From: an uncultured Pseudodesulfovibrio sp.
GTDB lineage: Bacteria; Desulfobacterota; Desulfovibrionia; Desulfovibrionales; Desulfovibrionaceae
DNA length: 64,000 nucleotides
Assembly: GCA_963677845.1 (NCBI GenBank)
Contig: OY782498.1
Location: 1,431,518 to 1,495,517 of the forward strand
Direction of reading: 5' to 3'
The notes under the pieces were generated by a model. It searched no databases, had not been told where the DNA came from, and worked only from the letters and a program-made list of their open reading frames with translations. Below, one piece after another: positions 20,115-32,338 of this stretch. A program made the translations under genes and the position numbers. Numbering within the stretch: position 1 is the first letter of the stretch; each line of letters begins with the position of its first letter.

Positions 20115-21060
20115 GACTTGCCCCCTTGCTGAGGTTATCCGCCTTTGCTTCCGCCATATCGTCGCCGCTTTCGGTCTGGTTCGGCTGGCTCCAGACCTTG
20201 TTGGCGATATCCCTCCTGACCCCAGCCGATATGGTCAGGTTTTTCTCGAATTGAATGGCCCCATCCTCCAGCCCAAAGGCTTCGCCCATCAATTGTGTCA
20301 GATAGAGAATGGGGATAGGTTTGGCTCCAAGTTTCTGCGCCTGCGACTGATATGCCTCAAGATTCATCTGGCACAATGGACAGACTGTAGCGATGGCATC
20401 CGCGCCCTCTGCGTCAGCGAGTATTGCTGCAACAGATTGAAGCGCCACATCGCGATGCCCCATCATGAGCGATGCACCGCAACATTTGTTTCCATGATCC
20501 CACTCATGCACGTCGGCACCCAAAGCCGTAAGAACTCGATGCATGGATGTAGGGTTCTTGGGATCATCAAACACCGGGTATGGTCGTAAGATCTGACACC
20601 CGTAATATGGGGCGATCTTCATGCCCTCAAGATTGTTGGTCACCTTCTGTTCAATAATTTTTGCCCCGACATCATTGATGAGAACATCGAGAATATGTCG
20701 TACTTCCACCTTGCCGGAATAGGTCAAACCGGACGCAGCCAGCACTTCATTCACCTTGCCATGTAGACTCCTGTCTCCAACTACTTCCTTGTTAACCTTG
20801 AGAAGGTTAAGATAACAGGCGGAACACGGCGCAATCACATCAATGCCATCAAGTTCCTTTTCAGTAAGAGCAAGGTTCCGTGCCGGAAGCGCATAATTCA
20901 TGAGCTTGCTCACAGGCTCGGCTGCACTCGCGCCGCAACAGGTCCAATCTGGAATTTCGATCAATTCGGCACCAAGATAATCCATGACTGCACGCGTAGA
21001 GATATCAAACTCCGTCGCACTTTCAGTCAAAGAACAACCTGGGTAGTATGCGTATTTCAT
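20107..21060 (-). CDS. hdrB: Heterodisulfide reductase subunit B-like protein (two CCG domains)
   Basis: MKYAYYPGCSL, DWTCCGAS, APCSACY, YYGCQ, CCGAS and CPLCQMN motifs. Confidence 0.85.
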   Translation of the reverse strand: MKYAYYPGCSLTESATEFDISTRAVMDYLGAELIEIPDWTCCGASAAEPVSKLMNYALPARNLALTEKELDGIDVIAPCSACYLNLLKVNKEVVGDRSLHGKVNEVLAASGLTYSGKVEVRHILDVLINDVGAKIIEQKVTNNLEGMKIAPYYGCQILRPYPVFDDPKNPTSMHRVLTALGADVHEWDHGNKCCGASLMMGHRDVALQSVAAILADAEGADAIATVCPLCQMNLEAYQSQAQKLGAKPIPILYLTQLMGEAFGLEDGAIQFEKNLTISAGVRRDIANKVWSQPNQTESGDDMAEAKADNLSKGASHV

Positions 21061-21623
21061 GACAATCCCTCCATCTCTCGCGCCTTGGCGAACATAGGCT
21101 TCAGCACTCCGCCCTGACCGCCACCCGGCATATGTACCTTGCCCTTGGCCATCATCTTCATACCCAGCGGTACAAACTTGAGCGGTAGCGTCGGGTTATC
21201 CATGCGTTTGAAGAAGTAATTGCTCATCATGCCCATTTCCTGCACCCGACCATGTGACTCGACGTTTTCCATGAACGCTCTATAGAACGCACTGTTCTTA
21301 CGTCCTTTGCCACTGAGCATGGCCAGTCTCTTCAGAGAAGCCATAACCGAAGTGAGTTTGAGACCTCGTGGACACCGCAGTGTGCAGGTGTAACAGGACG
21401 AACACATCCAGAAGGTATGACTCTCAAGTATCTCGTCGAGCATGCCGAACTGAATCATCCGCCACATGGCCCGAGGAGTGATATCCATAGCGAACCCATT
21501 AGGACAGGACGCGGTACAAGTACCGCACTGCATGCAGGCCCCAACTTCTTCCTTTAATTGGGCGAGCACGAACTCGATTTCGTCTCCGGCCGGGCTCCAT
21601 GTTTTTCTTACTGCTTCGCTCAT
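21057..21623 (-). CDS. hdrC: Heterodisulfide reductase subunit C-like protein
   Basis: Start moved to MSEAVRK (GGAGG RBS 8 nt upstream). CMQCGTCTASCP and CSSCYTCTLRCP motifs are present. ATGA overlap with hdrB. Confidence 0.8.
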   Translation of the reverse strand: MSEAVRKTWSPAGDEIEFVLAQLKEEVGACMQCGTCTASCPNGFAMDITPRAMWRMIQFGMLDEILESHTFWMCSSCYTCTLRCPRGLKLTSVMASLKRLAMLSGKGRKNSAFYRAFMENVESHGRVQEMGMMSNYFFKRMDNPTLPLKFVPLGMKMMAKGKVHMPGGGQGGVLKPMFAKAREMEGLS

Positions 21624-21648
21624 GGCGTTATTCCTCCATATTTCCGAA

Positions 21649-24600
21649 TTACGCCGGTTCTTCGAGTGCTGCGTCAATGACAGACATCATCGGCCCGTCG
21701 TGGAATCCTTTAAGGACCGTGGCGCTGTTGGGACAGACTGCTGCACAGGAACCGCAGCCCTGACACAGAATTTCGTCCACCTGAATCTGACCGAGTTCCA
21801 TATCAAGCACACGTGCTCCATATGGACAGGCCGCGACACACGCCTGACACAATGAACACAAAGAGTGTCGGACAGAGGCCACGACGGTTTCGCGGGCAAT
21901 GGTTTCTGCATTGAGAATTCTCAGTGCGCGTTGAGCAGCTGCCTTGGCAGAAGCGACAGATTCTCCCATTCGACGGGGAGCCAAACCTGTTCCGCACGCG
22001 TAGACACCCTGCTTAAGGAAATCCACGGGCCGCCACTTGAAGTCAGCTTCCTGATAGAAACCGTCTTCGTTGATCTCCACACCAAAAACTTCTTGGATAT
22101 CATCCATGTCATTAGGTTCCATGCCACTCGAAAGTGACAGGATATCCGGCCTAAGAACGATATTTTCTCTGAGAATGGGGTCGTAGGCCGTAATAACCGG
22201 TTTGCCTTCCTCAAATTTCACCTGTGGAGGTTCATCCTGTTCATATCGAATGAAGATGGCTCCGGCCTTCCGCGCCTGCGTGTAGTAGGTCTCAAGGAAA
22301 CCAGGCATCATGATATCACGGTAGAACACGTATATCGGTAAATCGGGGTTGCGCTCCTTGAGAGCAAGTACATTCTTAACCATTTCCGGGCAACAGACCT
22401 TGCTGCAATAGGTGCGGTCCTCACCGGGTTTGCGCCAACACTGAATCATGGCAACCGAAGAAAGTATGCCTGCATCAAGCTGACCTGTAGCTAGCTGTTC
22501 TTCCAATGCGAAATGAGTCATCACCGACTTGTGTACGCACAGACCACTTTCATAGACCTTGGCCTCGTGTGCGCCTGTAGCGAGAATGGATACACCATGC
22601 TCAAGCGGGAAGACTCCTTCCGGGCTGGCGATGGCTGAACGGAACCGTCCTGCACTGCCTCGAGACAGCACGACACGTGAATCCTTGAGCACCCTGATAT
22701 TTGGATGCTTTTCCACCTGTGCGATGAGTTCTTCCATGTACTTGTGAGGATCGGAACCATCAAGTTGTGTATGCAGTCGCATAGCCATGCCCCCGAGTTC
22801 TTCCTCGGATTCCACTAAACAAACTCCGTAACCCTGATCTGCAATGGACATGGCCGCTGTCATACCCGCCAATCCACCACCGACAACCAAGGCCGACCGT
22901 TCTACGTCAACCATATTAGGTGGCGGTGTTGGGTCGACTCCTTGCAACCGAGCAACAGCCGTGGACAAGGATGCGTAAATTTCCTTCTCCGCTGTTCGTG
23001 CGTCTGTTTCCGGGCCAAAGGTCGGTGTATAAATATCCACCACATCCATAAGTGCGGGATTGAGACCAATGGTCTTGCCCAATTCCTTGAGACGGGGAAT
23101 GTAGGCGTAAGGCATACACGCACCGATGATAATACGGTTCGGCTTAAACTCTATGGCCGCCTGTTCAATATCGCCCCACCCTTCTACGGTGCAGGCACTT
23201 CCTACACTTACAACCTTGCATACCGAATGCACATTAGCCATACGCTGACTCAGCGCCTCGATATCCACAGATTGCTCCAAAGTAGGACAGGATGCACAGA
23301 CTGCCACCAATGTACGAGGTGGCTCACGCGAAACGTCTGGGAACTCGGGGTCAAGTTCGTCCTCAATACCCGCCAGCACGTCATATGCCTTGATGATGCG
23401 GGACGCGGCTTGCGCTGCGGCCCCTGCATGAATCACGGATTCGGAGATGTCCTTGGGTTCACCAAACGCCCCGGCGGCAAAAATACCGACCGCGCTTGTA
23501 CGTTCCGGTGAATACGGTTGCGTATCTGCAAAACCCCATTGATTAAGATCAATGCCGATAGTTTGCGCGAAGGTGTCTGTATTCTTTGGCGGACGAGCGC
23601 CCACGGCCAAAACAACCATGTCATAGATTTCAGTGACCATAGTCCCGTCTTCGGCAAAGTACTCAAGCTTGATGTCCTGCCCGTTATCCGTCGGCAAGAG
23701 GGAATGAGGACGGCTGCGGACAAAACGCACGCCCTCTTCCTTTTCAGCATTGATGCGATAGCGTTGATACCCCTTTCCTGCCGTACGCATGTCCATGTAA
23801 AAGATGGAGGTCTCCACAGCACCATTGGTCACTTTTTTAGCGAGCAATGATTCCTTGATGGAAAACATACAGCATATACCAGAACAGAAGTCCGCATTCC
23901 TCTGCACATCGCGTGAGCCGACACACTGAATCCATGCAATCTTTTTGACGGGCTTGTCATCACCGGGACGCAACAACTTACCTCCGGTAGGACCGGTCCC
24001 GCTTAGAAGTCGTTCGAATTCTACCGCCGTGAGTACGCCAGGATGGTTATAATTCCAAATTTCCGACGAAGCGGAAGGATCAGTCTTCGGATCATAACAC
24101 TCAAATCCACCAGCCAAGACAATAGCTCCGACTTCCAGTTCCTCGACTGTGTCGGACAGAATACGCACGAATAATTTATCGAGCCACGGCACAAATTTCT
24201 TTGCAGTCAATGGCTTAGTCAAATATTCACGTGCACCCTGCATAACAAGAGCTGAAGCAGTCTCTTCCTGACTACTGTCTGCCAAAATGACCACTGGCAT
24301 ATCTGGATGAAGTTCCTGACAACGTGTCAGGACACGTTCAGCGTCCATGTCATTGATATTTAATCCAAGCAGGACAAGTCTGAATTGATCGGTTTCAGCG
24401 AGCTGATCCACAGCCTCACGCCCACTTGCGGTAAAATGAAGGGGGAAATTCTGTTCATCGAGACTTCCCTGCATCATTTCCTGAACCATTTCATCTCGAT
24501 CAACCACAAGGATATGAAAATCCTTGCGCTCTTCGAATTTAAAATCAATGGCCCCGGTAGGACACACTTCATGACACTTCCAACAACGCAGGCAGTTGTC

Positions 24601-25083
24601 CAAATCCAGCACATACTGATTGGGGATGGCGTGCGGAACCGGCAGATAAATAGCCGCTCGCTGTGTCAATCCAGCGTTGAATTCACTGTCCACACGCACA
24701 GGACACACCTCTGAACACTTGCCGCAACTGACACATTTCGTCGGGTCCACCAGAGGTGAAGTTCGGTTTAACGAGACAAAAAACTTGCCCGGTTCACCCT
24801 CAACTTCTGCCACCTCGGTAGAAAGAAGAATGTCAATATTATCGTGAAACAGCCCTTTGCGTAGACAATACTGGCTGGATGAATCTCGTGACATAAGCGG
24901 CAGCATTTTACACATACCGCAATGATCGGACGGGAATTGGTGGTCAAGTTGACTCAAAATTCCACCGTGATTTGGACGGCGGTCGATAAGAGCGACCTTG
25001 TGACCAGTAACAGCCAGGTCGAGGGCGGCGCGTATACCACCGATTCCTGCGCCTACCACCATTGCTCCGTATTGCTTCCTCAT
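21649..25083 (-). CDS. Giant HdrA-like flavo-Fe-S protein (HdrL-type, two HdrA modules) with an inserted CheY-like pseudo-receiver domain
   Basis: Start moved to MRKQYGAMVVGAGIGGIRAAL (GGGAGGA RBS). Module 1 has a GxGxxG motif, an inserted ferredoxin (CVSCGKCSEVCP, CLRCWKCHEVCP) and CVGSRD. A REC-like insert occupies residues about 190-310. Next comes an HdrA N-domain-like segment, then a second FAD module (VVGGGLAGMTAA), and finally a C-terminal 2x[4Fe-4S] region. Confidence 0.8.
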   Translation of the reverse strand: MRKQYGAMVVGAGIGGIRAALDLAVTGHKVALIDRRPNHGGILSQLDHQFPSDHCGMCKMLPLMSRDSSSQYCLRKGLFHDNIDILLSTEVAEVEGEPGKFFVSLNRTSPLVDPTKCVSCGKCSEVCPVRVDSEFNAGLTQRAAIYLPVPHAIPNQYVLDLDNCLRCWKCHEVCPTGAIDFKFEERKDFHILVVDRDEMVQEMMQGSLDEQNFPLHFTASGREAVDQLAETDQFRLVLLGLNINDMDAERVLTRCQELHPDMPVVILADSSQEETASALVMQGAREYLTKPLTAKKFVPWLDKLFVRILSDTVEELEVGAIVLAGGFECYDPKTDPSASSEIWNYNHPGVLTAVEFERLLSGTGPTGGKLLRPGDDKPVKKIAWIQCVGSRDVQRNADFCSGICCMFSIKESLLAKKVTNGAVETSIFYMDMRTAGKGYQRYRINAEKEEGVRFVRSRPHSLLPTDNGQDIKLEYFAEDGTMVTEIYDMVVLAVGARPPKNTDTFAQTIGIDLNQWGFADTQPYSPERTSAVGIFAAGAFGEPKDISESVIHAGAAAQAASRIIKAYDVLAGIEDELDPEFPDVSREPPRTLVAVCASCPTLEQSVDIEALSQRMANVHSVCKVVSVGSACTVEGWGDIEQAAIEFKPNRIIIGACMPYAYIPRLKELGKTIGLNPALMDVVDIYTPTFGPETDARTAEKEIYASLSTAVARLQGVDPTPPPNMVDVERSALVVGGGLAGMTAAMSIADQGYGVCLVESEEELGGMAMRLHTQLDGSDPHKYMEELIAQVEKHPNIRVLKDSRVVLSRGSAGRFRSAIASPEGVFPLEHGVSILATGAHEAKVYESGLCVHKSVMTHFALEEQLATGQLDAGILSSVAMIQCWRKPGEDRTYCSKVCCPEMVKNVLALKERNPDLPIYVFYRDIMMPGFLETYYTQARKAGAIFIRYEQDEPPQVKFEEGKPVITAYDPILRENIVLRPDILSLSSGMEPNDMDDIQEVFGVEINEDGFYQEADFKWRPVDFLKQGVYACGTGLAPRRMGESVASAKAAAQRALRILNAETIARETVVASVRHSLCSLCQACVAACPYGARVLDMELGQIQVDEILCQGCGSCAAVCPNSATVLKGFHDGPMMSVIDAALEEPA

Positions 25084-25111
25084 AACGTCCTCCCGAAACT
25101 GGGACCTGTCA

Positions 25112-26257
25112 TTAGGCCATGTGCGACACTGTGTCCTGGAACTCGTCTTCCTTGAAAACCGAAAGCGGCGGCGATTCTTCCAGACTTCTGCCCGGCTCAT
25201 AGTCAAAGCTCTTCTGTGTCCGAGCTGCGACAGTACGGAACAACTCCATTACGGGGATGCCGTTAGGACAAGCATTGGAACACTGTCCACACCCCACACA
25301 GGCCATGGACATATGCGCCATACGGGTCAGATGATAAAAGATGGTGTCGGTGGGCAACTTGAGACTTCCCTTACGCTTGGCCCAGCCCATGTACTGCCAC
25401 GGCTTATGTTCGAACACGTCAGTATTAAACACACATTCCTTGCAGTAGCAGACTGGACAGGCCACTCGACAGTTGTAGCAATTCACGCAACTCGACAGAT
25501 ACTCCGACAAATCCGACAGTGTTCCGGTAGCAGCCTGAGTTGCTTCAATCATGGCGTCACGATGTTCAGTACGGACCTTGATAAGCGATTCGAGTACCCC
25601 GTCGCGCCCATTGGTTTCCATGTCGGGCAATCCAAGGCTATTAAGCAAAGCTTCGCCTCGCGCACTGTCAGCCATGACAGGAATAGCATCGTGCAGATCT
25701 GCACCGGCAATTCCAATAACGATATCCGCATTGGTTGGAGCCGGGAATTCACAGGATTTACAGGCCGGAGCGATATCCACGCCGTTCAACGCAGTTTCAT
25801 TCGCTCCACCATGTTGCCCTTGGAAGGCGAGCGTCGCCTCAAACGAATCCCGATCACCAACAAAAGTCTTATAACCGGTGTTGTCGTAGGCCCCCATACA
25901 GTCCACTCCCACGATAATGACGTCGTCGAGACTACCCTGATTGAGTTTGACCAGCTCCACGAATGCACGAATCTCACAAGGTCGCATGACAACGGCAATG
26001 CGCTCGCCAGATTGCCCTCGTGTCAATCGCGAAAGTAGTTTTGCACTGTTCATGGGAAATGCCGGAGCTAATGGATCAGCACCTGAAAGTTGATCTGGAT
26101 CAGTTACCAGCGTGGGCATGGGAATTCCTTTGTCGAACAGGTGGACCGGTACCACAACTCCGCCTAACGACTCGTCTTCCAGCAAGCCGCGCAAAAAGCC
26201 CTGGATCGCCACAACCGGATTGATATTTTCAACTTGTATTTTCACAGTGGTCGCCAT
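25112..26257 (-). CDS. FrhB/FdhB-like Fe-S (flavo)protein with a C-terminal 2x[4Fe-4S] ferredoxin domain
   Basis: VVMRPCEIRAFVEL resembles the GxPCQIxA motif of the F420-hydrogenase/dehydrogenase beta family. CVNCYNCRVACPVC and CVGCGQCSNACP motifs are also present. Confidence 0.5.
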   Translation of the reverse strand: MATTVKIQVENINPVVAIQGFLRGLLEDESLGGVVVPVHLFDKGIPMPTLVTDPDQLSGADPLAPAFPMNSAKLLSRLTRGQSGERIAVVMRPCEIRAFVELVKLNQGSLDDVIIVGVDCMGAYDNTGYKTFVGDRDSFEATLAFQGQHGGANETALNGVDIAPACKSCEFPAPTNADIVIGIAGADLHDAIPVMADSARGEALLNSLGLPDMETNGRDGVLESLIKVRTEHRDAMIEATQAATGTLSDLSEYLSSCVNCYNCRVACPVCYCKECVFNTDVFEHKPWQYMGWAKRKGSLKLPTDTIFYHLTRMAHMSMACVGCGQCSNACPNGIPVMELFRTVAARTQKSFDYEPGRSLEESPPLSVFKEDEFQDTVSHMA

Positions 26258-26275: not shown

Positions 26276-26704
26276 CTAAACCACGGCCATGGAACGCGCT
26301 TCCATGGGACCGAGTTCTCTGATTTCGTTAATGAAAGAATTTACCGTTTCCGCAAATTCATTCCCTTCACTCGCTCCCACCCAAGTCAGCTTGACGCGCT
26401 CCCGTTCAACACCAAACTGAGGCAGGATTTCATTGAGAAGCTTAACCCGACGCCGGGCTTTGTAGTTGCCGTTGATATAATGGCAATCACCGGGATGACA
26501 CCCACTGACAAGCACTCCGTCAGCCCCGGAAAGAAGCGACTTCACAATGTACTTAGGGTCCACCATGCCGGTACACATAACGCGTACTAATCGTAAATTT
26601 GGCTGTTGTACCATTCTCGACGTTCCGGCGAGATCTGCTGCGGTGTAGGTGCACCAATTGCAGACAAAAGCCAGAATGGTCGGTTCAAATTCACTACTCA
26701 TCAC
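26276..26704 (-). CDS. mvhD: MvhD/FlxD-like [2Fe-2S] protein (methyl-viologen-reducing hydrogenase delta subunit family)
   Basis: ILAFVCNWCTYTAADLAG, MCTGMVDP and VSGCHPGDCHY motifs; 142 aa. Confidence 0.85.
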   Translation of the reverse strand: MMSSEFEPTILAFVCNWCTYTAADLAGTSRMVQQPNLRLVRVMCTGMVDPKYIVKSLLSGADGVLVSGCHPGDCHYINGNYKARRRVKLLNEILPQFGVERERVKLTWVGASEGNEFAETVNSFINEIRELGPMEARSMAVV

Positions 26705-26710
26705 TGCCTC

Positions 26711-28735
26711 CTAGGCTTCGCCCGGTTGATTATCACTGACTGCCTCAGCTCTTTGTCCCTCGGCCTCAGGAGGCACAAGGTCAAACATCATGCCAAGCAT
26801 TCCGTCGATTTCATTGAATATCTGAGTCTGATTGAAGTGCTTGATCTGCGCGGCCCCACTTGGGCAATATCCTGCACAGCTGCCACAGCCCTTACACATT
26901 GCTTCGTTGATAACCGATATCTGTCGCCGTTCGTCAAACTCGATGGCTGAGTACGGGCACAGATTAATACACACCTTGCATCCGATGCAGACGTCCGGGT
27001 CGATCCACGAAGTTGTCGGAGATATGGAAACAGTCCCCTTCGCAGCAAGCGCAAGAGCTTGCGCTGCACCACCTGAAGCATGAGCAACGGCATCAGGAAT
27101 ATCTTTTGGTCCCTGACAGGCTCCGGCAAGGAACACACCATCGGTCGCGGTAGAAACCGGACCCAACTTGGGATGTTCTTCAAGGAAGAATCCATCCTGC
27201 CCTTGAGCCACACCAAATATACGGGCCACTTCAGTGACATCTTTACGCGCTTCCATGGCAGTGCACAGAATGACCATGTCCACAGGTACACGCACATTCA
27301 TCCCGAGTAAGGTGTCTTCACCAACGATCACCAGCTTGTCATCTTCTTCAACAACTTCAGCTGGACGACCCCGAATAAAGGTCACACCTTCCTCTTGAAC
27401 ACGCTTGAAGAACTCTTCGTACCCCTTGCCGAAGCACCTCATATCAATGTAAAAATTGTACACCTTGGTATCGTGTCCGACTTTATCCTTGATAAGATGG
27501 TCAAATTTGAGGGCGTACATGCAACAGGTGCGCGAACAGTATTCGTGATAGTTTTTATCACGGCTGCCCACACAATGAATTATGCCGACACTTTTGGGCG
27601 CCTCGCCATTCTTCAAGACAATCTTTCCCTCGGTGGGACCAACTGCGTTGTTAAGCCGTTCGAATTGTAACGCAGTGTACACATTGTCGAATCGACCAAA
27701 GCCGTATTCGTACAATGGTGTCGGGTCCATGGCATCGTATCCGGTAGCCAATACAATGGAACCGACATTAAAGACTTCATGAGTCTCCTTCATAGTATAA
27801 TCGATGGCTCCAGTAGGACATATGGTCTGACATATTCCACATTTATCTTTAGTAATCTTTTTACAGATAGAACCATCGATGACCGGCGTACTCGGCACGG
27901 CCTGTGGCGAATTCCGATAAATGGCCTTTCGCATGGAAAGCCCTTCGTTGAACTCGTTCAAAGCTTTGGTTGGACACTTTTCCAGACAGGCTCCGCAGCC
28001 GGTACAGACAGCTTCGTTCACATACCGAGGCTTGTGCTTCACGGTTACTGTATAATTCCCGACAAAACCTGAAACGTCCTCAACTTCACTCCAAGTCATC
28101 AGATTGATGTTCGGTTCCTGCGATACCGCTACCATCTTGGGAGTGGAGATACAGGCTGCACAATCCAATGTAGGAAATGTCTTGTCGAACTGGGCCATAT
28201 GCCCACCAATTGACGGACTTTTTTCAACCAAATGAACCTTATGTCCTGATTTGGCGATATCAAGAGAGGCCTGAATACCGGCGATGCCAGCACCAACGAC
28301 CATGACATCCGGCAGGACATCCACTTCGCGTGAAAAGAGTTTCTCGTGATCGCCCACTCTATCAACGGCCGCTTCGACTATATGCTTGGCCTTAGCTGTC
28401 GCTTCATCCGGATCAGCGGTTGTCCATGAACAATGTTCCCGAATACATGCGTGTTGCATGAGATAGGGATTTAACCCAGCCCGTGCACAAGCCTTCTGAA
28501 AAGTCTTTTCATGCAGACGCGGTGAACAGGATGCCACGACGACCCTGTTGAGCCCATATTCGCGGATATCCTTGATAACCATTTCCTGTCCCGGGTCCGA
28601 ACACATGAATTGGTAGTCTCGAGAGACCGCCACGTCCTTGAGTTTTCCGGCATACCTGGCCACGTCTTCGCAATCGACCTTTCCCGCGATGTTCGAACCG
28701 CAGTGACAGATGTATACTCCGATTTTGTTGCCCAT
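26711..28735 (-). CDS. hdrA: Heterodisulfide reductase subunit A (FAD, multiple Fe-S; electron-bifurcating type)
   Basis: N-domain GVYICHCGSNIAGKVD, VVGAGIAGIQASLD, inserted ferredoxin, CVGSRD, and C-terminal CIGCKVCINLCP/CKGCGSCAGYCP motifs. Confidence 0.9.
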   Translation of the reverse strand: MGNKIGVYICHCGSNIAGKVDCEDVARYAGKLKDVAVSRDYQFMCSDPGQEMVIKDIREYGLNRVVVASCSPRLHEKTFQKACARAGLNPYLMQHACIREHCSWTTADPDEATAKAKHIVEAAVDRVGDHEKLFSREVDVLPDVMVVGAGIAGIQASLDIAKSGHKVHLVEKSPSIGGHMAQFDKTFPTLDCAACISTPKMVAVSQEPNINLMTWSEVEDVSGFVGNYTVTVKHKPRYVNEAVCTGCGACLEKCPTKALNEFNEGLSMRKAIYRNSPQAVPSTPVIDGSICKKITKDKCGICQTICPTGAIDYTMKETHEVFNVGSIVLATGYDAMDPTPLYEYGFGRFDNVYTALQFERLNNAVGPTEGKIVLKNGEAPKSVGIIHCVGSRDKNYHEYCSRTCCMYALKFDHLIKDKVGHDTKVYNFYIDMRCFGKGYEEFFKRVQEEGVTFIRGRPAEVVEEDDKLVIVGEDTLLGMNVRVPVDMVILCTAMEARKDVTEVARIFGVAQGQDGFFLEEHPKLGPVSTATDGVFLAGACQGPKDIPDAVAHASGGAAQALALAAKGTVSISPTTSWIDPDVCIGCKVCINLCPYSAIEFDERRQISVINEAMCKGCGSCAGYCPSGAAQIKHFNQTQIFNEIDGMLGMMFDLVPPEAEGQRAEAVSDNQPGEA

Positions 28736-28757: not shown

Positions 28758-29027
28758 TCAACGACTGCTCTTGCCGCTGGTCAGTTCCAAAGTCAGTTCG
28801 CCCACCAGTTTTTTGAGTTCTTCATTTTCAGCGATCAACTCAGATTCACTCGAAAGATTTGGTCGCTTTTCAAAAATCTGATGGCATTGCTCCAGGAATT
28901 GCCCTCGCCACTTGTAATACTGTCCGGGTCGCAGGTCGTGGGAGCGACACAAGTCATTGACGCACCCTCCCATAAGGCCTTCCAAGACGATCTTTGCTTT
29001 TTTCCGTGCATCCCATTTGCGCCGCAT
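28758..29027 (-). CDS. Stand-alone IS3/IS911 OrfA-like HTH protein with no OrfB and no inverted repeats
   Basis: Start taken at MRRKWDARKKAKIVLEGL (GGAGG RBS). It has the HTH_Tnp_1-like pattern ..NDLCRSHDLRPGQYYKWRGQF.. and a leucine-zipper-like ELIAENEELKKLVGELTLEL. It ends 22 nt before the hdrA start. Confidence 0.6.
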   Translation of the reverse strand: MRRKWDARKKAKIVLEGLMGGCVNDLCRSHDLRPGQYYKWRGQFLEQCHQIFEKRPNLSSESELIAENEELKKLVGELTLELTSGKSSR

Positions 29028-29544
29028 TCGTGATACCTCCTTGCCGTATTCCCTTGTCTTCTCTTTTCCGGGGCGTTCACATGGAGAGTATGAGAGTGTC
29101 GCGCTACGCGAACCGCTTGAATATTGTTGCCCTTGAATCAGCAACCCCGCTTGAACCAAAAGGAAATTCATTTTCCCGGATATCCGCGTTACTCCCGGAC
29201 GATTCTCACTTGCTCTCTAAGAACAAGATGCGTACCGCTTTCGAGTTGTATAGATATTCTCGATTGATGGAGAGAGAGTCTATTGGCAGGCATGCTGTTT
29301 TCCCTTGAAAATCAGGCTAAAAACGTCTTCTCGTACAAGATAAGTCTTGCAAAACAAGACACATCCTCACCTTGAAGAGAGTCCCCTGCCATTCATAAGA
29401 TGAAATTATTTGCAAAAGATTGTGCGAGGACTCTCAAGAGTCTCTCATGCTTCAAAGAGCGTTGTGTGTCTTGTCAGACGAGACTTTTTAACTCTCTCAA
29501 AACGATATGTTTTTTTCTTCAACAATTTCAAGATGTAGACAGAT

Positions 29545-29615: not shown

Positions 29616-31022
29616 ATGGCCGAGATTCTCATTATTGATGGGGACAGGAGTTTTACTCAAGCCTTGGGGAAAGCTCTTGCAACACACGGTCTGCCGACGG
29701 CAGACTGTGATACACTGTCACGTGCGATGGGCCTACTTCACACCGGAGACTACAAGGCTGTACTGCTTGGAGATGATCTTGCGGATGGTGACAGTCTAGC
29801 TTACCTCGCAACGATCAGAGAAATTCCGTCCTTTCCTGAAGTCATCGTCATTTCCCGTAGCCGAAATCCTGACATGGCGGAATTGGCCATTCAAAACGGT
29901 GCGTGGAATTACATCACCAAACCGCTGAACATGCAGCGACTTCTCGTCCTTATCAAGCGTGTCATAGAATATCATGAAGAACGATATAGCGGTGGCATCC
30001 GATGTTCCCTGCGTCGTTCCGGTATCATTGGCAACAGCCGCCTGCTTCAATCCTGCCTGGATACACTGGCTCATGCTGCCAGCTCAGATGCAAATGTTCT
30101 TATCACCGGAGAAACCGGGACAGGCAAAGAACTCTTCGCACGAGCCATTCACAAAAACAGTGAACGAGCAGCAAATCCTTTTATTGTTGTTGACTGTGCT
30201 GCCCTACCAGACTCTTTGGCAGAGAACCTTCTCTTTGGTCATGAACGCGGAGCATACACTAGCGCAGATAGAAATTCCGTGGGGTTAGTCAAACAAGCTG
30301 ACAGCGGTGTTCTCTTTCTTGATGAAGTAGGAGAATTGCCGATGTCCCTGCAAAAAGTTTTTCTGCGTGTACTGGAAGGACGAAGCTTTCGTCCTGTTGG
30401 TGGCATGAAGGAAATCCAGAGTAATTTTCGTCTTGTAGCAGCAACCAATCGAAACCTTGAGGCCATGGTTGAAAAAGCAGACTTCCGGCGGGATCTTTTT
30501 TATCGGCTGCGCGGTATCCGCATGCAACTTCCGCCACTTCGATCAATCACCGAAGACATTAACGAATTGACATGTAAATTCATTCAGCATCATTCCAAAC
30601 GACTTAAAATGGCGAGCAAAGGATTTTCGCCTGATTTCTTGGATGCACTGATGAACTATAAATGGCCAGGCAACATCCGAGAACTTCAAAACACCATTGA
30701 GCAAGCCCTTTCACGAGCTGGCAAAGAATCGATCCTCTACCCTCGTCACCTGCCACGTGCCATCCGTGCGGAAATTGCTCGTCGTGATATGGAAAAAGGA
30801 ATCAGTAGAGAAGAACATCAGGACCACTTACGTATTGATCCACAAGATTTTCCGACTCTCAAAGAGTATCGAAATCTTCAGTATGAAGAAATGGAAAAAC
30901 GGTATCTTCTTAATCTATTTGAGATAACCGGAGGAGATGTCAAAAAATCATGCGAAGTCGCAGGAATTTCTCGCGCTCGATTTTATGTCCTCATCAAACA
31001 GCACGGAATATCAAGGGATTGA
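29616..31022 (+). CDS. Sigma-54-dependent NtrC-family response regulator (REC-AAA+-Fis HTH)
   Basis: GETGTGKELFARAIH Walker A, LFLDEVGEL, a GAYTSA variant of the GAFTGA loop, WPGNIRELQN, and a C-terminal HTH (GDVKKSCEVAGISRARFY). Confidence 0.9.
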   Translation: MAEILIIDGDRSFTQALGKALATHGLPTADCDTLSRAMGLLHTGDYKAVLLGDDLADGDSLAYLATIREIPSFPEVIVISRSRNPDMAELAIQNGAWNYITKPLNMQRLLVLIKRVIEYHEERYSGGIRCSLRRSGIIGNSRLLQSCLDTLAHAASSDANVLITGETGTGKELFARAIHKNSERAANPFIVVDCAALPDSLAENLLFGHERGAYTSADRNSVGLVKQADSGVLFLDEVGELPMSLQKVFLRVLEGRSFRPVGGMKEIQSNFRLVAATNRNLEAMVEKADFRRDLFYRLRGIRMQLPPLRSITEDINELTCKFIQHHSKRLKMASKGFSPDFLDALMNYKWPGNIRELQNTIEQALSRAGKESILYPRHLPRAIRAEIARRDMEKGISREEHQDHLRIDPQDFPTLKEYRNLQYEEMEKRYLLNLFEITGGDVKKSCEVAGISRARFYVLIKQHGISRD

Positions 31023-31105: not shown

Positions 31106-32338
31106 TTATTCTTTCAAAGTTGCGACATAATCCATAATGGCTTGTGCAGAACGTTTGGAGAGATTCACCGCCTCAGCCACAGTCTTGGCGCCTGTGACAA
31201 CATCACCTGAAGCAAAAACTCCTTCCCGAGTGGTTCGGCCATCTTCATTGGTTATGATGAGGCCTGTTTTACCGACTTCAATACCGGACAAATTATCTCG
31301 CGGAGCCTGACTGGCCGCAATAAAGACTGTGTCCGCTTCAAGAAAGTGTTCACTGCCCTCTTCAGTCACAAGACGCATTGAACCGTCCTGTTCCTCAAGG
31401 TGAGTTTTGACACATCGAATACCATCATCCAAAATTTCGAGAGGTGTAGTATAAAATTGAAATGCGACACCATCAAGTTTGGCATACTCATACTCGTATT
31501 TGGTGGCCGACATATTTTCTTCGCCACGGCGATAGAGGACTGTGACCTCTTCCGCCCCCTTGCGTCGGGCTGTTCTGGCAACATCCATGGCCACATTTCC
31601 TGCGCCGATAACAAACACTCGCTTGCCTAAAGAATAAACATTAGGATTTTTGAGATAATTAATCGCGTAGTGGACCGTTCCCAAAGTTTCACCTTTGATA
31701 CGTAAAGGCTTGGGACTCCACACACCGGTCCCGATGAAGATTGCCTTGTATCCATCACGCAAAAGATCTTCGAGCGTAATAATAGGACCAATGACCATAT
31801 TGGGCCGTATTTTAACACCCAGCCGTTCCAACATCTTCTTGAGTTTGACCAAAATGCTTTTTGGCAAACGAAAATCGGGAATGCCGTACTGAAGAACTCC
31901 GCCTATCTTATCTTCGGATTCGAAAATAGTCACATCAAAACCCTTTGAAGCAAGGATAAAGGCAACAGTAAGGCCAGCAGGCCCGGAACCAACTATCGCT
32001 ATCTTTTTGCCATTATTCTCATGCTCGGGCTTCTTCATCTGAAGCTGTTCCAGATAATAACTGGAGATATAGTTTTCGATGTCACTGACCTGAATAGGAG
32101 AACTCTTTTTGCCAAGAATACAATGGCCTTCACAGAAATTTTCATGCGGACAGATAAGAGAACAAACAACAGATAGCGGATTGTTATTAAACAAAAGTTC
32201 GCCCGCTTCGTATGTCTTCCCGTCAAGCAAGAGTTTTATAACTTCATTAATTGGGGTACTGATCGGACACCCCTTGCTGCACAACGGTTTCTTGCATTGC
32301 AAGCAGCGACTCGCCTCTTCAATGATATGCTTTCCCAT
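31106..32338 (-). CDS. Glutamate synthase small-subunit-like NAD(P)H oxidoreductase (GltD/SudA/NfnB family), stand-alone
   Basis: N-terminal Fe-S domain (CLQCKKPLCSKGCP..CPHENFCEGHC), IAIVGSGPAGL and a second dinucleotide fold VIGAGNVAMD. Confidence 0.8.
   Translation of the reverse strand: MGKHIIEEASRCLQCKKPLCSKGCPISTPINEVIKLLLDGKTYEAGELLFNNNPLSVVCSLICPHENFCEGHCILGKKSSPIQVSDIENYISSYYLEQLQMKKPEHENNGKKIAIVGSGPAGLTVAFILASKGFDVTIFESEDKIGGVLQYGIPDFRLPKSILVKLKKMLERLGVKIRPNMVIGPIITLEDLLRDGYKAIFIGTGVWSPKPLRIKGETLGTVHYAINYLKNPNVYSLGKRVFVIGAGNVAMDVARTARRKGAEEVTVLYRRGEENMSATKYEYEYAKLDGVAFQFYTTPLEILDDGIRCVKTHLEEQDGSMRLVTEEGSEHFLEADTVFIAASQAPRDNLSGIEVGKTGLIITNEDGRTTREGVFASGDVVTGAKTVAEAVNLSKRSAQAIMDYVATLKE

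What the first reader, a model, noticed from the sequence alone, without database searches (positions are those of the whole stretch)
24154..24516. CheY-like pseudo-receiver domain cleanly inserted into the HdrA fold of a giant HdrL-type protein
Comparison with the neighbouring canonical HdrA defines the insertion.
- HdrA reads ..CPTGAIDYTMKETHEVFNVGSIVLATGYD.., while HdrL reads ..CPTGAIDFKFEERKDF[~120 aa]VEELEVGAIVLAGGFECYD...
- The insert has the receiver topology: HILVVDRD, then ..RLVLLGLNINDMDAERVL.., ..MPVVILADSS.., ..YLTKPL...
- The phospho-acceptor Asp position is Gly (codon at 24364-24366) and the Thr/Ser87 position is Ala. The conserved Lys is kept.

The domain therefore cannot be phosphorylated in the usual way. 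A receiver-fold module wired into a flavin/Fe-S electron-bifurcation-type subunit suggests allosteric or protein-protein control of electron flow. I do not know of this being characterised for Hdr enzymes.
Basis: partly seen in the sequence, partly recalled or inferred. Interest (0 to 1): 0.7.

Follow-up and report, generated by a model that had tools for sequence, protein, structure and literature searches.

The report
Dead receiver domain inside HdrA-like enzyme
A signalling (receiver) domain that has lost its phosphorylation site sits inside a large iron-sulfur flavoprotein of a sulfate reducer; relatives in other sulfate reducers keep an intact copy at the same spot with sensor kinase genes in the same operon, which suggests that some of these redox enzymes are switched directly by phosphorylation.

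Summary
Window 24154-24516 (- strand) encodes a Pfam-significant receiver domain (PF00072, 58.5 bits, E 9e-16). It is predicted as a (beta-alpha)5 fold. It replaces about 6 residues between the inserted ferredoxin domain and the FAD domain of the first HdrA-like unit of an 1144-aa tandem-HdrA protein from a Pseudodesulfovibrio. The acceptor Asp is Gly, Asp13 is Arg, Thr87 is Ala, and Lys109-Pro is kept.

It is not an oddity of this genome. The same insert, at the same site and of the same length, defines a large Desulfobacterota family.
- **Desulfobacterales and Syntrophobacterales:** all 254 orthologue sequences checked carry a canonical D-D-D-T-K receiver. Histidine kinase genes follow hdrCB directly in 15 of 17 loci scored by script.
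- **Desulfovibrionales:** those kinases are gone (0 of 35 loci) and a Usp gene sits in their place. None of 120 proteins keeps the full catalytic set, and the receiver core evolves fastest while helix alpha5 and its linker stay conserved.

My reading is that this is a phosphorylation-independent relic of a once kinase-controlled receiver, kept as an architectural or docking module. Databases already label such proteins "response regulator", but I found no paper on them. The neighbouring sigma-54 activator has also lost its acceptor Asp, together with its kinase.

The parts
21649..25083 (-). Gene for the 1144-aa tandem HdrA-like protein. Unit 1 has the FAD domain, the inserted 2x[4Fe-4S] ferredoxin domain and the receiver. 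Unit 2 has an HdrA N-terminal-like domain, an FAD domain without an inserted ferredoxin domain, and a C-terminal ferredoxin domain.
   Evidence: Pfam and NCBIfam HdrA/HdrA2 matches. BLASTP against the window HdrA. 100% identical to P0001 from an uncultured Pseudodesulfovibrio. AlphaFold mean pLDDT 85, pTM 0.86. Best structural matches are HdrA chains 8RVY, 5ODC and 7BKB.
24154..24516 (-). Degenerate receiver (REC) domain, residues 190-310. The Pfam match covers about 24193-24513. The insertion as defined against HdrA covers about 24160-24528.
   Evidence: PF00072 at 58.5 bits, E 8.9e-16. PDB receiver matches. Predicted b1-a1-b2-a2-b3-a3-b4-a4-b5-a5 topology with pLDDT about 87-92.
24364..24366 (-). 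Gly240 codon at the phospho-acceptor (CheY Asp57) position.
   Evidence: Alignments. Column counts. Codon read directly.
24496..24501 (-). Asp195-Arg196 at the acidic-pair positions (CheY Asp12 and Asp13). The second acidic residue is lost.
24280..24282 (-). Ala268 codon at the Thr/Ser87 position.
   Evidence: Codon read.
24211..24216 (-). Lys290-Pro291 (CheY Lys109-Pro110), retained.
   Evidence: Pro is present in 119 of 120 close relatives.
24142..24198 (-). Helix alpha5 plus linker, 'KKFVPWLDKLFVRILSDTV'. This is the best-conserved part of the insert in Desulfovibrionales, and it runs straight into a beta-strand of the FAD domain.
   Evidence: W, L, D, K, R, S and D are nearly invariant in alignment A1. 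Mean pairwise identity is 0.61 here against 0.39 for the receiver core. Model helix 295-311 is followed by strand 313-324.
24538..24759 (-). Inserted 2x[4Fe-4S] ferredoxin domain of unit 1, immediately N-terminal to the receiver. All eight Cys are invariant.
   Evidence: Fer4 matches. Invariant C118/121/124/128 and C165/168/171/175, in script numbering.
26711..28735 (-). Canonical HdrA (674 aa), first gene of the operon.
26276..26704 (-). MvhD/FlpD-like subunit.
   Evidence: PF02662, E 1e-53.
25112..26257 (-). FrhB/FdhB-like Fe-S protein (381 aa).
   Evidence: PF04432 and Fer4_8.
21057..21677 (-). HdrC-like ferredoxin. The ORF as listed overlaps the end of the tandem-HdrA gene, so the true start is probably an internal ATG.
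   Evidence: Fer4_8, Fer4_9 and Fer4_17.
20107..21060 (-). HdrB-like protein with two CCG domains.
   Evidence: PF02754.
19212..20114 (-). Tandem universal stress protein. It occupies the position that histidine kinases hold in the canonical loci.
   Evidence: PF00582. Synteny statistics.
29616..31022 (+). Divergent sigma-54 activator. Its own receiver also lacks the acceptor Asp ('VLLGDD') and Asp13 ('IIDGD'), and no kinase gene lies next to it.
   Evidence: Pfam. Alignment with orthologues. 41-locus comparison.

Best explanation
The segment is a true receiver-fold domain. It descends from a canonical, kinase-partnered receiver that was inserted once into the hinge of a tandem HdrA-like flavoprotein. 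The hinge lies between the inserted ferredoxin domain and the FAD domain.

In Desulfobacterales and Syntrophobacterales the receiver is intact and the operon carries its own histidine kinases. There it probably puts the Hdr-like complex under direct phospho-control.

In the Desulfovibrionales lineage, to which this Pseudodesulfovibrio belongs, the operon kinases were lost. The catalytic pocket then decayed. Asp13 and Thr87 are rarely kept in any subgroup, and the acceptor Asp was then lost in several sublineages, becoming Gly here.

The domain is now a phosphorylation-independent pseudo-receiver. It is kept because its fold, and above all helix alpha5 and the linker, have become a fixed architectural or docking element at the ferredoxin-domain/FAD-domain junction.

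**Shown:** fold, insertion site, residue states, family distribution, kinase synteny and the shift in selective constraint.
**Inferred:** single origin, phospho-control in the canonical forms, and the structural or docking role here.
For: - **Fold.** PF00072 is significant and the predicted topology is (beta-alpha)5.
- **Clean insertion.** It is seen against the window HdrA and against solved HdrA structures. Representatives have either 120-124 aa (one of 139 aa) or no residues at the site.
- **Canonical relatives.** The signature is D-D-D-T-K in 16 insert-bearing representatives, 118 Desulfobacterales-type proteins and 120 Syntrophobacteraceae-type proteins.
- **Common origin.** The window receiver scores a median of 42.9 bits against canonical HdrA-inserted receivers. 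Its best score against any other receiver in the same loci is 34.8 bits.
- **Kinase synteny.** A same-strand kinase follows hdrCB in 15 of 17 canonical loci and in 0 of 35 degenerate loci. Usp follows in 34 of 35 degenerate loci.
- **Decayed pocket.** None of 120 Desulfovibrionaceae proteins has Asp12, Asp13 and Asp57 together. The acceptor column holds D 62, G 46, S 9, A 2 and E 1.
- **Shifted constraint.** The receiver core is the least conserved region in the degenerate group (0.39) and the most conserved in the canonical group (0.71). Alpha5 plus linker shows the opposite pattern, 0.61 against 0.41.
- **Still under selection.** dN/dS of the core is 0.26-0.51 in the four unsaturated pairs, against 0.02-0.60 across the other four regions. 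It was the highest value in two of the four pairs and is always below 1.
Against: - No experiment exists on any member.
- Phosphotransfer to the canonical forms is inferred from residues and synteny only.
- The conserved length, the persistent Lys-Pro and the purifying selection fit a live allosteric or partner-binding role just as well as a passive scaffold.
- About half of the Desulfovibrionaceae proteins keep Asp57, and many of those loci keep a divergent hybrid kinase. Residual phosphorylation in those relatives is not excluded.
Confidence: 0.6

Rival explanations
1. The pseudo-receiver is still an active regulatory module. Without phosphorylation, it would sense a partner protein or ligand and gate movement of the inserted ferredoxin domain, and hence electron flow. 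The partner could be the tandem Usp encoded directly after hdrB, or the Fe-S/MvhD subunits. This is essentially the first reader's idea.
For: - The receiver sits exactly at the C-terminal hinge of the inserted ferredoxin domain.
- Lys-Pro and alpha5 plus linker are conserved.
- dN/dS is below 1.
- Usp replaces the kinases at the same operon position in 34 of 35 degenerate loci.
Against: - The receiver core is the fastest-evolving part of the protein in this group.
- No surface outside alpha3, alpha5 and the linker is conserved.
- No partner has been tested.
- Usp also occurs downstream of the kinases in some canonical loci (L066, L076, L077). It is therefore an old operon member rather than a replacement.
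Confidence: 0.27
2. The domain is still phosphorylated, either at a non-canonical residue such as a neighbouring Asp in 'NINDMD' or Asp195/Asp197, or by a kinase encoded elsewhere.
For: Several Asp residues lie near the pocket. Relatives with Asp57 often keep a divergent hybrid kinase.
Against: - The acceptor, Asp13 and Thr87 are all missing, so the Mg2+ site and the phospho-switch cannot form.
- No kinase gene lies in this locus.
- Across 41 Desulfovibrionales loci with a divergent sigma-54 activator (23 of them with the kinase), presence of the hybrid kinase tracks the sigma-54 activator's acceptor perfectly. It does not track the state of the HdrA-inserted receiver. The exceptions are L054, L037, L044, L045, L022, L046 and L049.
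Confidence: 0.03
3. The resemblance to a receiver is chance, or the segment is a normal part of HdrA.
For: None was found.
Against: - Pfam E 9e-16 with a score above the gathering threshold.
- 87 PDB receiver matches.
- The segment is absent from the neighbouring HdrA, from all solved HdrA structures and from most HdrA-like representatives.
Confidence: 0.01

Closest known systems
Canonical receiver-containing tandem HdrA proteins of Desulfobacterales and Syntrophobacterales, for example Desulfobacula toluolica Tol2 'HdlA5' (P0312, locus L001). NCBI annotates them as 'response regulator'.
   Same: - Same tandem HdrA architecture and about the same length (1130-1190 aa).
- Receiver inserted at the identical site with the same length.
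- Same operon core: large HdrA-type gene, MvhD, FeS protein, this protein, HdrC, HdrB.
   Different: - Their receiver is D-D-D-T-K and is the most conserved region of the protein.
- Their operons carry REC-PAS-HK, HAMP-PAS-HK and REC-HATPase genes.
- Their first gene is a GltD/HdrA fusion of about 1140 aa, not a plain HdrA.
- The window copy has Gly, Arg and Ala at the catalytic positions, no operon kinase, and Usp after hdrB.
HdrA of methanogen heterodisulfide reductase complexes (PDB 5ODC, 8RVU/8RVY, 7BKB).
   Same: - Thioredoxin-reductase-like FAD domain, inserted 2x[4Fe-4S] ferredoxin domain and the Cys motifs.
- Partner genes for HdrB, HdrC and MvhD.
- Best sequence and fold matches.
   Different: - No solved HdrA has anything at the insertion point. 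About 6 residues there are replaced by about 130 here.
- This protein is a fusion of two HdrA-like units that divide the N-terminal, inserted-ferredoxin and C-terminal ferredoxin domains between them.
- Its substrate is unknown. From my own knowledge, DsrC is often proposed for bacterial Hdr-like complexes.
Aspartate-less or pseudo-receiver domains, for example FrzS, HP1043, ChxR and the KaiA N-terminal domain (recalled from the literature, not tested here).
   Same: Receiver fold retained while the phospho-acceptor pocket is degenerate, so any function is independent of phosphorylation.
   Different: Those are N-terminal modules of regulators or clock proteins. This one is an internal insertion in a redox enzyme, and it has living canonical orthologues at the same position.
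HdrABC/HdrL cluster of Syntrophobacter fumaroxidans (Sfum_0819-0824; PMC5947623) and HdrL of Desulfobacterium autotrophicum HRM2 (PMC2702500).
   Same: - Same gene set: HdrA-type protein, HdrB, HdrC, FeS protein, MvhD and a large NAD-type HdrL.
- Syntrophobacter and Syntrophobacteraceae MAG loci with this layout carry the canonical receiver (L074, L076).
- The complex was abundant in S. fumaroxidans under sulfate reduction.
   Different: - Neither paper mentions a receiver.
- I could not confirm that Sfum_0821 itself carries it.
- 'HdrL' in those papers means the GltD/NADH-type fusion, which this protein is not.

Membership tests
Response regulator receiver domain (Pfam PF00072, CheY-like fold) | Significant profile match over the whole domain | tested here: met
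   58.5 bits against a gathering score of 30.2, E 8.9e-16, profile positions 1-106 of 111. 87 PDB receivers match at E<=1e-3.
Response regulator receiver domain (Pfam PF00072, CheY-like fold) | (beta-alpha)5 topology | tested here: met
   The AlphaFold model has strands 191-195, 216-219, 235-241, 265-269 and 287-290 alternating with helices 199-212, 222-231, 249-259, 271-282 and 295-311. pLDDT is about 87-92. This is a prediction, not a solved structure.
Canonical phospho-accepting receiver | Acceptor Asp at the end of beta3 (CheY Asp57) | tested here: not met
   Gly240.
Canonical phospho-accepting receiver | Acidic pair for Mg2+ binding (CheY Asp12/Asp13) | tested here: not met
   Asp195 is kept, but Arg196 replaces the second acidic residue.
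Canonical phospho-accepting receiver | Thr/Ser87 switch residue and Lys109 | tested here: not met
   Ala268 replaces Thr/Ser. Lys290-Pro291 is kept.
Canonical phospho-accepting receiver | Cognate histidine kinase | tested here: not met
   No kinase core was detected in window 10001-40000. Kinases follow hdrCB in 15 of 17 canonical loci and in 0 of 35 degenerate loci. A kinase elsewhere in the genome cannot be excluded.
HdrA family (FAD/Fe-S subunit of heterodisulfide reductase-type complexes) | TrxR-like FAD domain with GxGxxG, conserved Cys motifs and an inserted 2x[4Fe-4S] ferredoxin domain | tested here: met
   NCBIfam HdrA2/HdrA matches at E 1e-190/1e-146, below the equivalog cut-offs. Invariant Cys and Gly columns. 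Fold matches to 8RVY, 5ODC and 7BKB.
HdrA family (FAD/Fe-S subunit of heterodisulfide reductase-type complexes) | Genomic association with HdrB (CCG), HdrC and MvhD | tested here: met
HdrA family (FAD/Fe-S subunit of heterodisulfide reductase-type complexes) | Flavin-based electron bifurcation or heterodisulfide reduction activity | not testable with these tools
   Needs biochemistry.
HdrL sensu Strittmatter et al. 2009 (HdrA/glutamate-synthase fusion with an NADH site) | GltD-type module (Fer4_20 plus an NAD(P)H-binding Pyr_redox_2 domain) fused to HdrA | tested here: not met
   This protein has no PF14691 match. The module is present in the upstream partner gene of canonical loci, for example L001 4838-8338. 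Definition taken from PMC2702500.

The most novel reading that the evidence does not exclude
The receiver-containing tandem HdrA family would be an undescribed class of response regulator whose output is an Hdr-type, possibly electron-bifurcating, redox complex. In Desulfobacterales and Syntrophobacterales, operon-encoded PAS kinases would phosphorylate the inserted receiver and so gate the neighbouring ferredoxin domain. That would give direct post-translational two-component control of electron flow. The window protein would be the 'locked' descendant, in which the switch was fixed after kinase loss. Regulation may then have passed to transcription through the Asp-less sigma-54 activator, or to the Usp partner.
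Probability: 0.35. Interest if true: 0.8.

Novelty: new variant of a known kind. Interest (0 to 1): 0.6.

Why it matters
Hdr-like complexes are thought to be central to cytoplasmic electron transfer, and possibly to electron bifurcation, in sulfate reducers and syntrophs. Nothing is known about how their activity is controlled.

This family places a receiver domain at the hinge of the ferredoxin domain, and in many genomes dedicated kinase genes lie in the same operon. That gives a concrete and testable handle on post-translational control of such enzymes.

The Desulfovibrionales copies, including this one, are a natural experiment. They show what happens to an embedded receiver once its kinases are lost: the core decays while alpha5 and the linker are retained.

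The parallel loss of the acceptor Asp in the neighbouring sigma-54 activator coincides exactly with loss of its kinase across 41 loci. This is a clean case of co-degeneration of a two-component pair.

Tried and rejected
- **Literature.** Searches for HdrL, HdrA or HdlA together with receiver, CheY or response regulator found no description of the domain. Pereira et al. 2011 could not be opened. The paywalled reviews of HdrA diversity that I know of were not sought and are unlikely to be in this open-access library. Prior mention therefore cannot be excluded.
- **Sfum_0821.** I tried to confirm that it carries the receiver. The paper gives no domain data and no supplements are held. The third homology search returned only Syntrophobacter and Syntrophobacteraceae MAG proteins. 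The link remains an inference.
- **Sigma-54 promoter.** A -24/-12 consensus search in the window was no better than chance: 64 matches against 65 expected, and none in the hdrA upstream region at two mismatches or fewer. I make no promoter claim.
- **Acceptor Gly coupled to loss of the divergent hybrid kinase.** I rejected strict coupling. L054 has Gly with the kinase. L037, L044 and L045 have Ser with the kinase. L022, L046 and L049 have Asp without it. The kinase tracks the sigma-54 activator instead.
- **dN/dS for the window's closest pair.** Synonymous sites are saturated, so only four other pairs were informative. The segments are short and the values are noisy.
- **Interface analysis.** This was not possible because model coordinates are not exposed.
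Full report
**Numbering.** Residues are counted from the ATG at 25083. The 1144-aa product is identical to database protein P0001, from an uncultured Pseudodesulfovibrio. My scripts and the AlphaFold model started at the GTG at 25086, so their numbers are one higher.

Yes. Window 24154-24516 (- strand) encodes residues 190-310 of a large ORF.
- On its own the segment scores 58.5 bits (E 8.9e-16) against Pfam PF00072 Response_reg. The gathering score is 30.2, and profile positions 1-106 of 111 are matched. The hit persists in the full protein.
- NCBIfam places it nearest the NtrC/NtrX/ZraR-type receivers.
- phmmer finds 87 solved receiver domains at E<=1e-3, including YycF, NtrC1 and RssB.
- Those alignments, and a MAFFT alignment with E. 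coli NtrC, place Gly240 at the acceptor position. Its codon, 24364-24366, reads tcc/gga.
- Ala268 sits at the Thr87 position, and Lys290-Pro291 sits at the Lys109-Pro110 position.

**2. Is it a clean insertion?**

Yes.
- BLASTP against the neighbouring 674-aa HdrA aligns script residues 9-186 to HdrA 145-317 and 310-554 to HdrA 315-553. About 123 residues sit where HdrA is continuous.
- Solved HdrA chains (8RVU, 5ODC, 7BKB) break at the same point. About 6 HdrA residues (320-325 of 8RVU) are replaced by about 130.
- The insertion follows directly after the last CP motif of the inserted 2x[4Fe-4S] ferredoxin domain, whose eight Cys are invariant in the family.
- An AlphaFold model built on 85 homologues has mean pLDDT 85.1 and pTM 0.86. 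It gives the insert a b1-a1-b2-a2-b3-a3-b4-a4-b5-a5 topology at pLDDT about 87-92. Helix alpha5 (295-311) runs straight into strand 313-324 of the FAD domain.
- Foldseek returns HdrA chains as the best matches for the whole model.

**3. What is the host protein?**

It is a tandem fusion of two HdrA-like units.
- Unit 1 lacks the HdrA N-terminal domain and the C-terminal ferredoxin domain. It has the inserted ferredoxin domain and the receiver.
- Unit 2 (script 594-1141) aligns to HdrA 7-232 and 325-647. It therefore has the N-terminal and C-terminal domains but no inserted ferredoxin domain.
- There is no GltD/Fer4_20 module. The protein is thus not 'HdrL' as originally defined, an HdrA/glutamate-synthase fusion (PMC2702500).

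The operon on the - strand reads: HdrA, MvhD, FrhB/FdhB-like FeS protein, this protein, HdrC, HdrB, tandem Usp, and a split HdrC/HdrB-like pair. A small HTH_Tnp_1 ORF and a divergent sigma-54 activator lie upstream.

**4. How widespread is the insert, and is the Asp ever present?**

*Close relatives.* The 120 best homologues are 54-100% identical and all about 1140-1190 aa. Those with source names are mostly Desulfovibrionaceae. All carry the insert, and several sources already call them 'response regulator receiver modulated heterodisulfide reductase subunit A' or 'Response regulator receiver protein'. Column counts:

| Position (CheY numbering) | Residues found in 120 proteins |
|---|---|
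| Asp57 (acceptor) | D 62, G 46, S 9, A 2, E 1 |
| Asp13 | acidic in only 7 |
| Thr87 | T or S in only 11 |
| Lys109 | K in 93 |
| Pro110 | P in 119 |

No protein has Asp12, Asp13 and Asp57 together.

*Representatives.* A full HMMER scan of 50%-identity representatives with residues 1-420 gave a bimodal picture. Sixteen representatives have a 120-124 aa insert (one of 139 aa) at this site. About 90 have -7 to 0 residues, mostly -3, and are typically about 1000-1020 aa long.

*Distant relatives.* The 15 distant insert-bearing representatives (the 16th, P0121, groups with the degenerate type) and two further cluster members, including a Desulfatirhabdium protein, all carry the full canonical D-D-D-T-K signature. 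So do 118 of 118 relatives of P0129 (Desulfobacula, Desulfotignum, Desulfobacter; NCBI name 'response regulator') and 120 of 120 relatives of a Syntrophobacter MAG protein.

*Common origin.* The window receiver scores higher against these canonical HdrA-inserted receivers (median 42.9 bits, minimum 34.5) than against any other receiver encoded in the same 83 loci (maximum 34.8). Together with the identical site and length, this supports one common origin.

**5. Gene context**

*Canonical loci.* In four loci (Desulfobacula toluolica Tol2, a Desulfobacter MAG and two others) the order is the same:
1. REC-PAS-HK
2. GltD/HdrA fusion of about 1140 aa
3. MvhD (not called in the Desulfobacter MAG locus)
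4. FeS protein
5. REC-tandem HdrA
6. HdrC
7. HdrB
8. HAMP-PAS-HK of about 770 aa
9. REC-HATPase of about 375 aa

The taxa were:
- Pseudodesulfovibrio, Maridesulfovibrio, Desulfomicrobium, Desulfohalobiaceae, Desulfocurvus, Solidesulfovibrio, Desulfolutivibrio, Desulfobaculum and Oceanidesulfovibrio;
- Desulfobacteraceae;
- Syntrophobacteraceae.

Scripted annotation of all loci gave, for loci with at least 4 kb of downstream flank:

| Locus type | Same-strand kinase within 4.5 kb downstream | Usp downstream |
|---|---|---|
| Canonical | 15 of 17 | 3 of 17 |
| Degenerate | 0 of 35 | 34 of 35 |

In the canonical loci with Usp, it lies after the kinases. The degenerate loci also use a plain HdrA of about 680-740 aa as the first gene, not the GltD fusion.

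**6. Selective constraint**

Mean pairwise identity by region:

| Group | Receiver core | Alpha5 + linker | Other regions |
|---|---|---|---|
| Degenerate | 0.39 (lowest) | 0.61 | 0.54-0.76 |
| Canonical | 0.71 (highest) | 0.41 | 0.37-0.68 |

In the Desulfovibrionales group the motif 'FVPWLDKLYMRxxSD' is nearly invariant.

NG86 dN/dS of the receiver core in the four unsaturated pairs is 0.26-0.51, against 0.02-0.60 across the other four regions, and was the highest value in two of the four pairs. Constraint is relaxed but clearly below 1. The segments are short and the estimates noisy.

**7. Interpretation**

The simplest history has four steps.
1. An NtrC-like receiver was inserted once at the hinge after the inserted ferredoxin domain of a tandem HdrA protein, in an operon with its own kinases.
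2. That state persists in Desulfobacterales and Syntrophobacterales. Residues and synteny predict a genuine phospho-controlled enzyme there. This is inferred and untested.
3. In Desulfovibrionales the operon kinases were lost and the catalytic pocket decayed. The acceptor Asp then drifted to D, G, S, A or E.
4. The window copy (D-R-G-A-K) belongs to the Gly sublineage, which includes Pseudodesulfovibrio, Maridesulfovibrio and Desulfomicrobium.

The domain is retained at constant length under purifying selection. Conservation is concentrated on alpha5 and the linker that feed into the FAD domain. I therefore think it most likely serves as a phosphorylation-independent architectural or docking element (confidence 0.6).

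A live allosteric or partner-sensing role, for instance with Usp, is the main rival (0.27). Non-canonical phosphorylation is unlikely (0.03). Chance resemblance is excluded.

From my own recollection of the published HdrA structures, the ferredoxin domains of HdrA move and carry the low-potential branch. That would make this hinge a sensible place for a switch. I did not verify this here.

**8. Side finding: the sigma-54 activator**

The divergent sigma-54 activator (29616-31022) also has an Asp-less receiver ('IIDGD', 'VLLGDD'). Its orthologues in L005 and L006 are canonical and are preceded by a PAS-HK-REC hybrid kinase.

Across the 41 Desulfovibrionales loci where a divergent activator receiver could be scored (one of them the window), the match is perfect:
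- where the hybrid kinase is present, the activator reads DDD[T/S]K (23 loci);
- where the kinase is absent, the activator's acceptor is Gly (15 loci including the window) or Ala (3 loci).

The state of the HdrA-inserted receiver does not track that kinase strictly. So the hybrid kinase's partner is the activator, not the enzyme.

**9. Novelty and limits**

The architecture is visible in database names, but I found no paper that mentions it. The two HdrL papers, the Desulfococcus genome paper and all keyword searches were negative. Pereira et al. 2011 could not be opened, and the paywalled HdrA reviews I know of were not sought.

The S. fumaroxidans HdrABC/HdrL cluster (Sfum_0819-0824) has the same gene set and was abundant under sulfate reduction. 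I could not confirm that its HdrA carries the receiver.

Pseudo-receivers and enzyme-linked response regulators are both known kinds. An internal receiver in an Hdr-type flavoprotein, with canonical and decayed lineages side by side, is a new variant of them. No biochemical claim here has been tested.

Noticed in passing
window 29616-31022 (+): The divergent sigma-54 activator has an Asp-less receiver ('IIDGD', 'VLLGDD'), and no kinase gene lies beside it. Across the 41 Desulfovibrionales loci with a scorable divergent activator, the PAS-HK-REC hybrid kinase is present exactly when the activator's receiver is DDD[T/S]K (23 loci). It is absent exactly when the acceptor is Gly or Ala (18 loci). 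There are at least two independent losses, of the 'DGGSK' type and the 'DNA[S/A/T]K' type.
   Followed up: yes
window 19212-20114 (-): A tandem universal stress protein gene directly follows hdrB. Desulfobacterales and Syntrophobacterales loci have HAMP-PAS-HK and REC-HATPase genes at that position. Usp is there in 34 of 35 degenerate loci. In three canonical loci (L066, L076, L077) it lies after the kinases, so it looks like an old operon member exposed by deletion of the kinases.
   Followed up: partly
window 28758-29171 (-): A small ORF with an HTH_Tnp_1 (IS3-type transposase N-terminal) match lies immediately upstream of hdrA on the same strand. A similar 87-aa HTH_Tnp_1 gene sits at the same place in L005. 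It may be a conserved small regulator rather than a transposase remnant.
   Followed up: partly
window 17809-19104 (-): A second HdrC-like gene (242 aa, Fer4) and a single-CCG gene (167 aa) follow Usp, like a split HdrD. The same pair occurs in L005.
   Followed up: no
window 31106-32338 (-): A stand-alone GltD/NfnB-like gene (Fer4_20 plus Pyr_redox_2, 410 aa) lies convergent with the sigma-54 activator. In canonical loci this module is fused to the first HdrA-type gene of the operon.
   Followed up: no
window 25083-25088 (-): A GTG at 25086 immediately precedes the ATG at 25083. The ORF list starts even earlier, at a TTG at 25206, which overlaps the upstream FeS gene. The database protein starts at the ATG.
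   Followed up: yes
P0190 and P0288 (related proteins, not in the window): Other receiver-HdrA combinations exist. P0190 has three N-terminal receivers followed by one HdrA unit. Desulfotignum balticum P0288 (936 aa) has the receiver at 119-228 but no inserted ferredoxin domain before it.
   Followed up: partly
L001 17347-18477 and equivalents in L002-L004: Canonical operons end with a REC-HATPase protein of about 375 aa that gave no HisKA match in Pfam. Its role in the putative phosphorelay is unclear.
   Followed up: no
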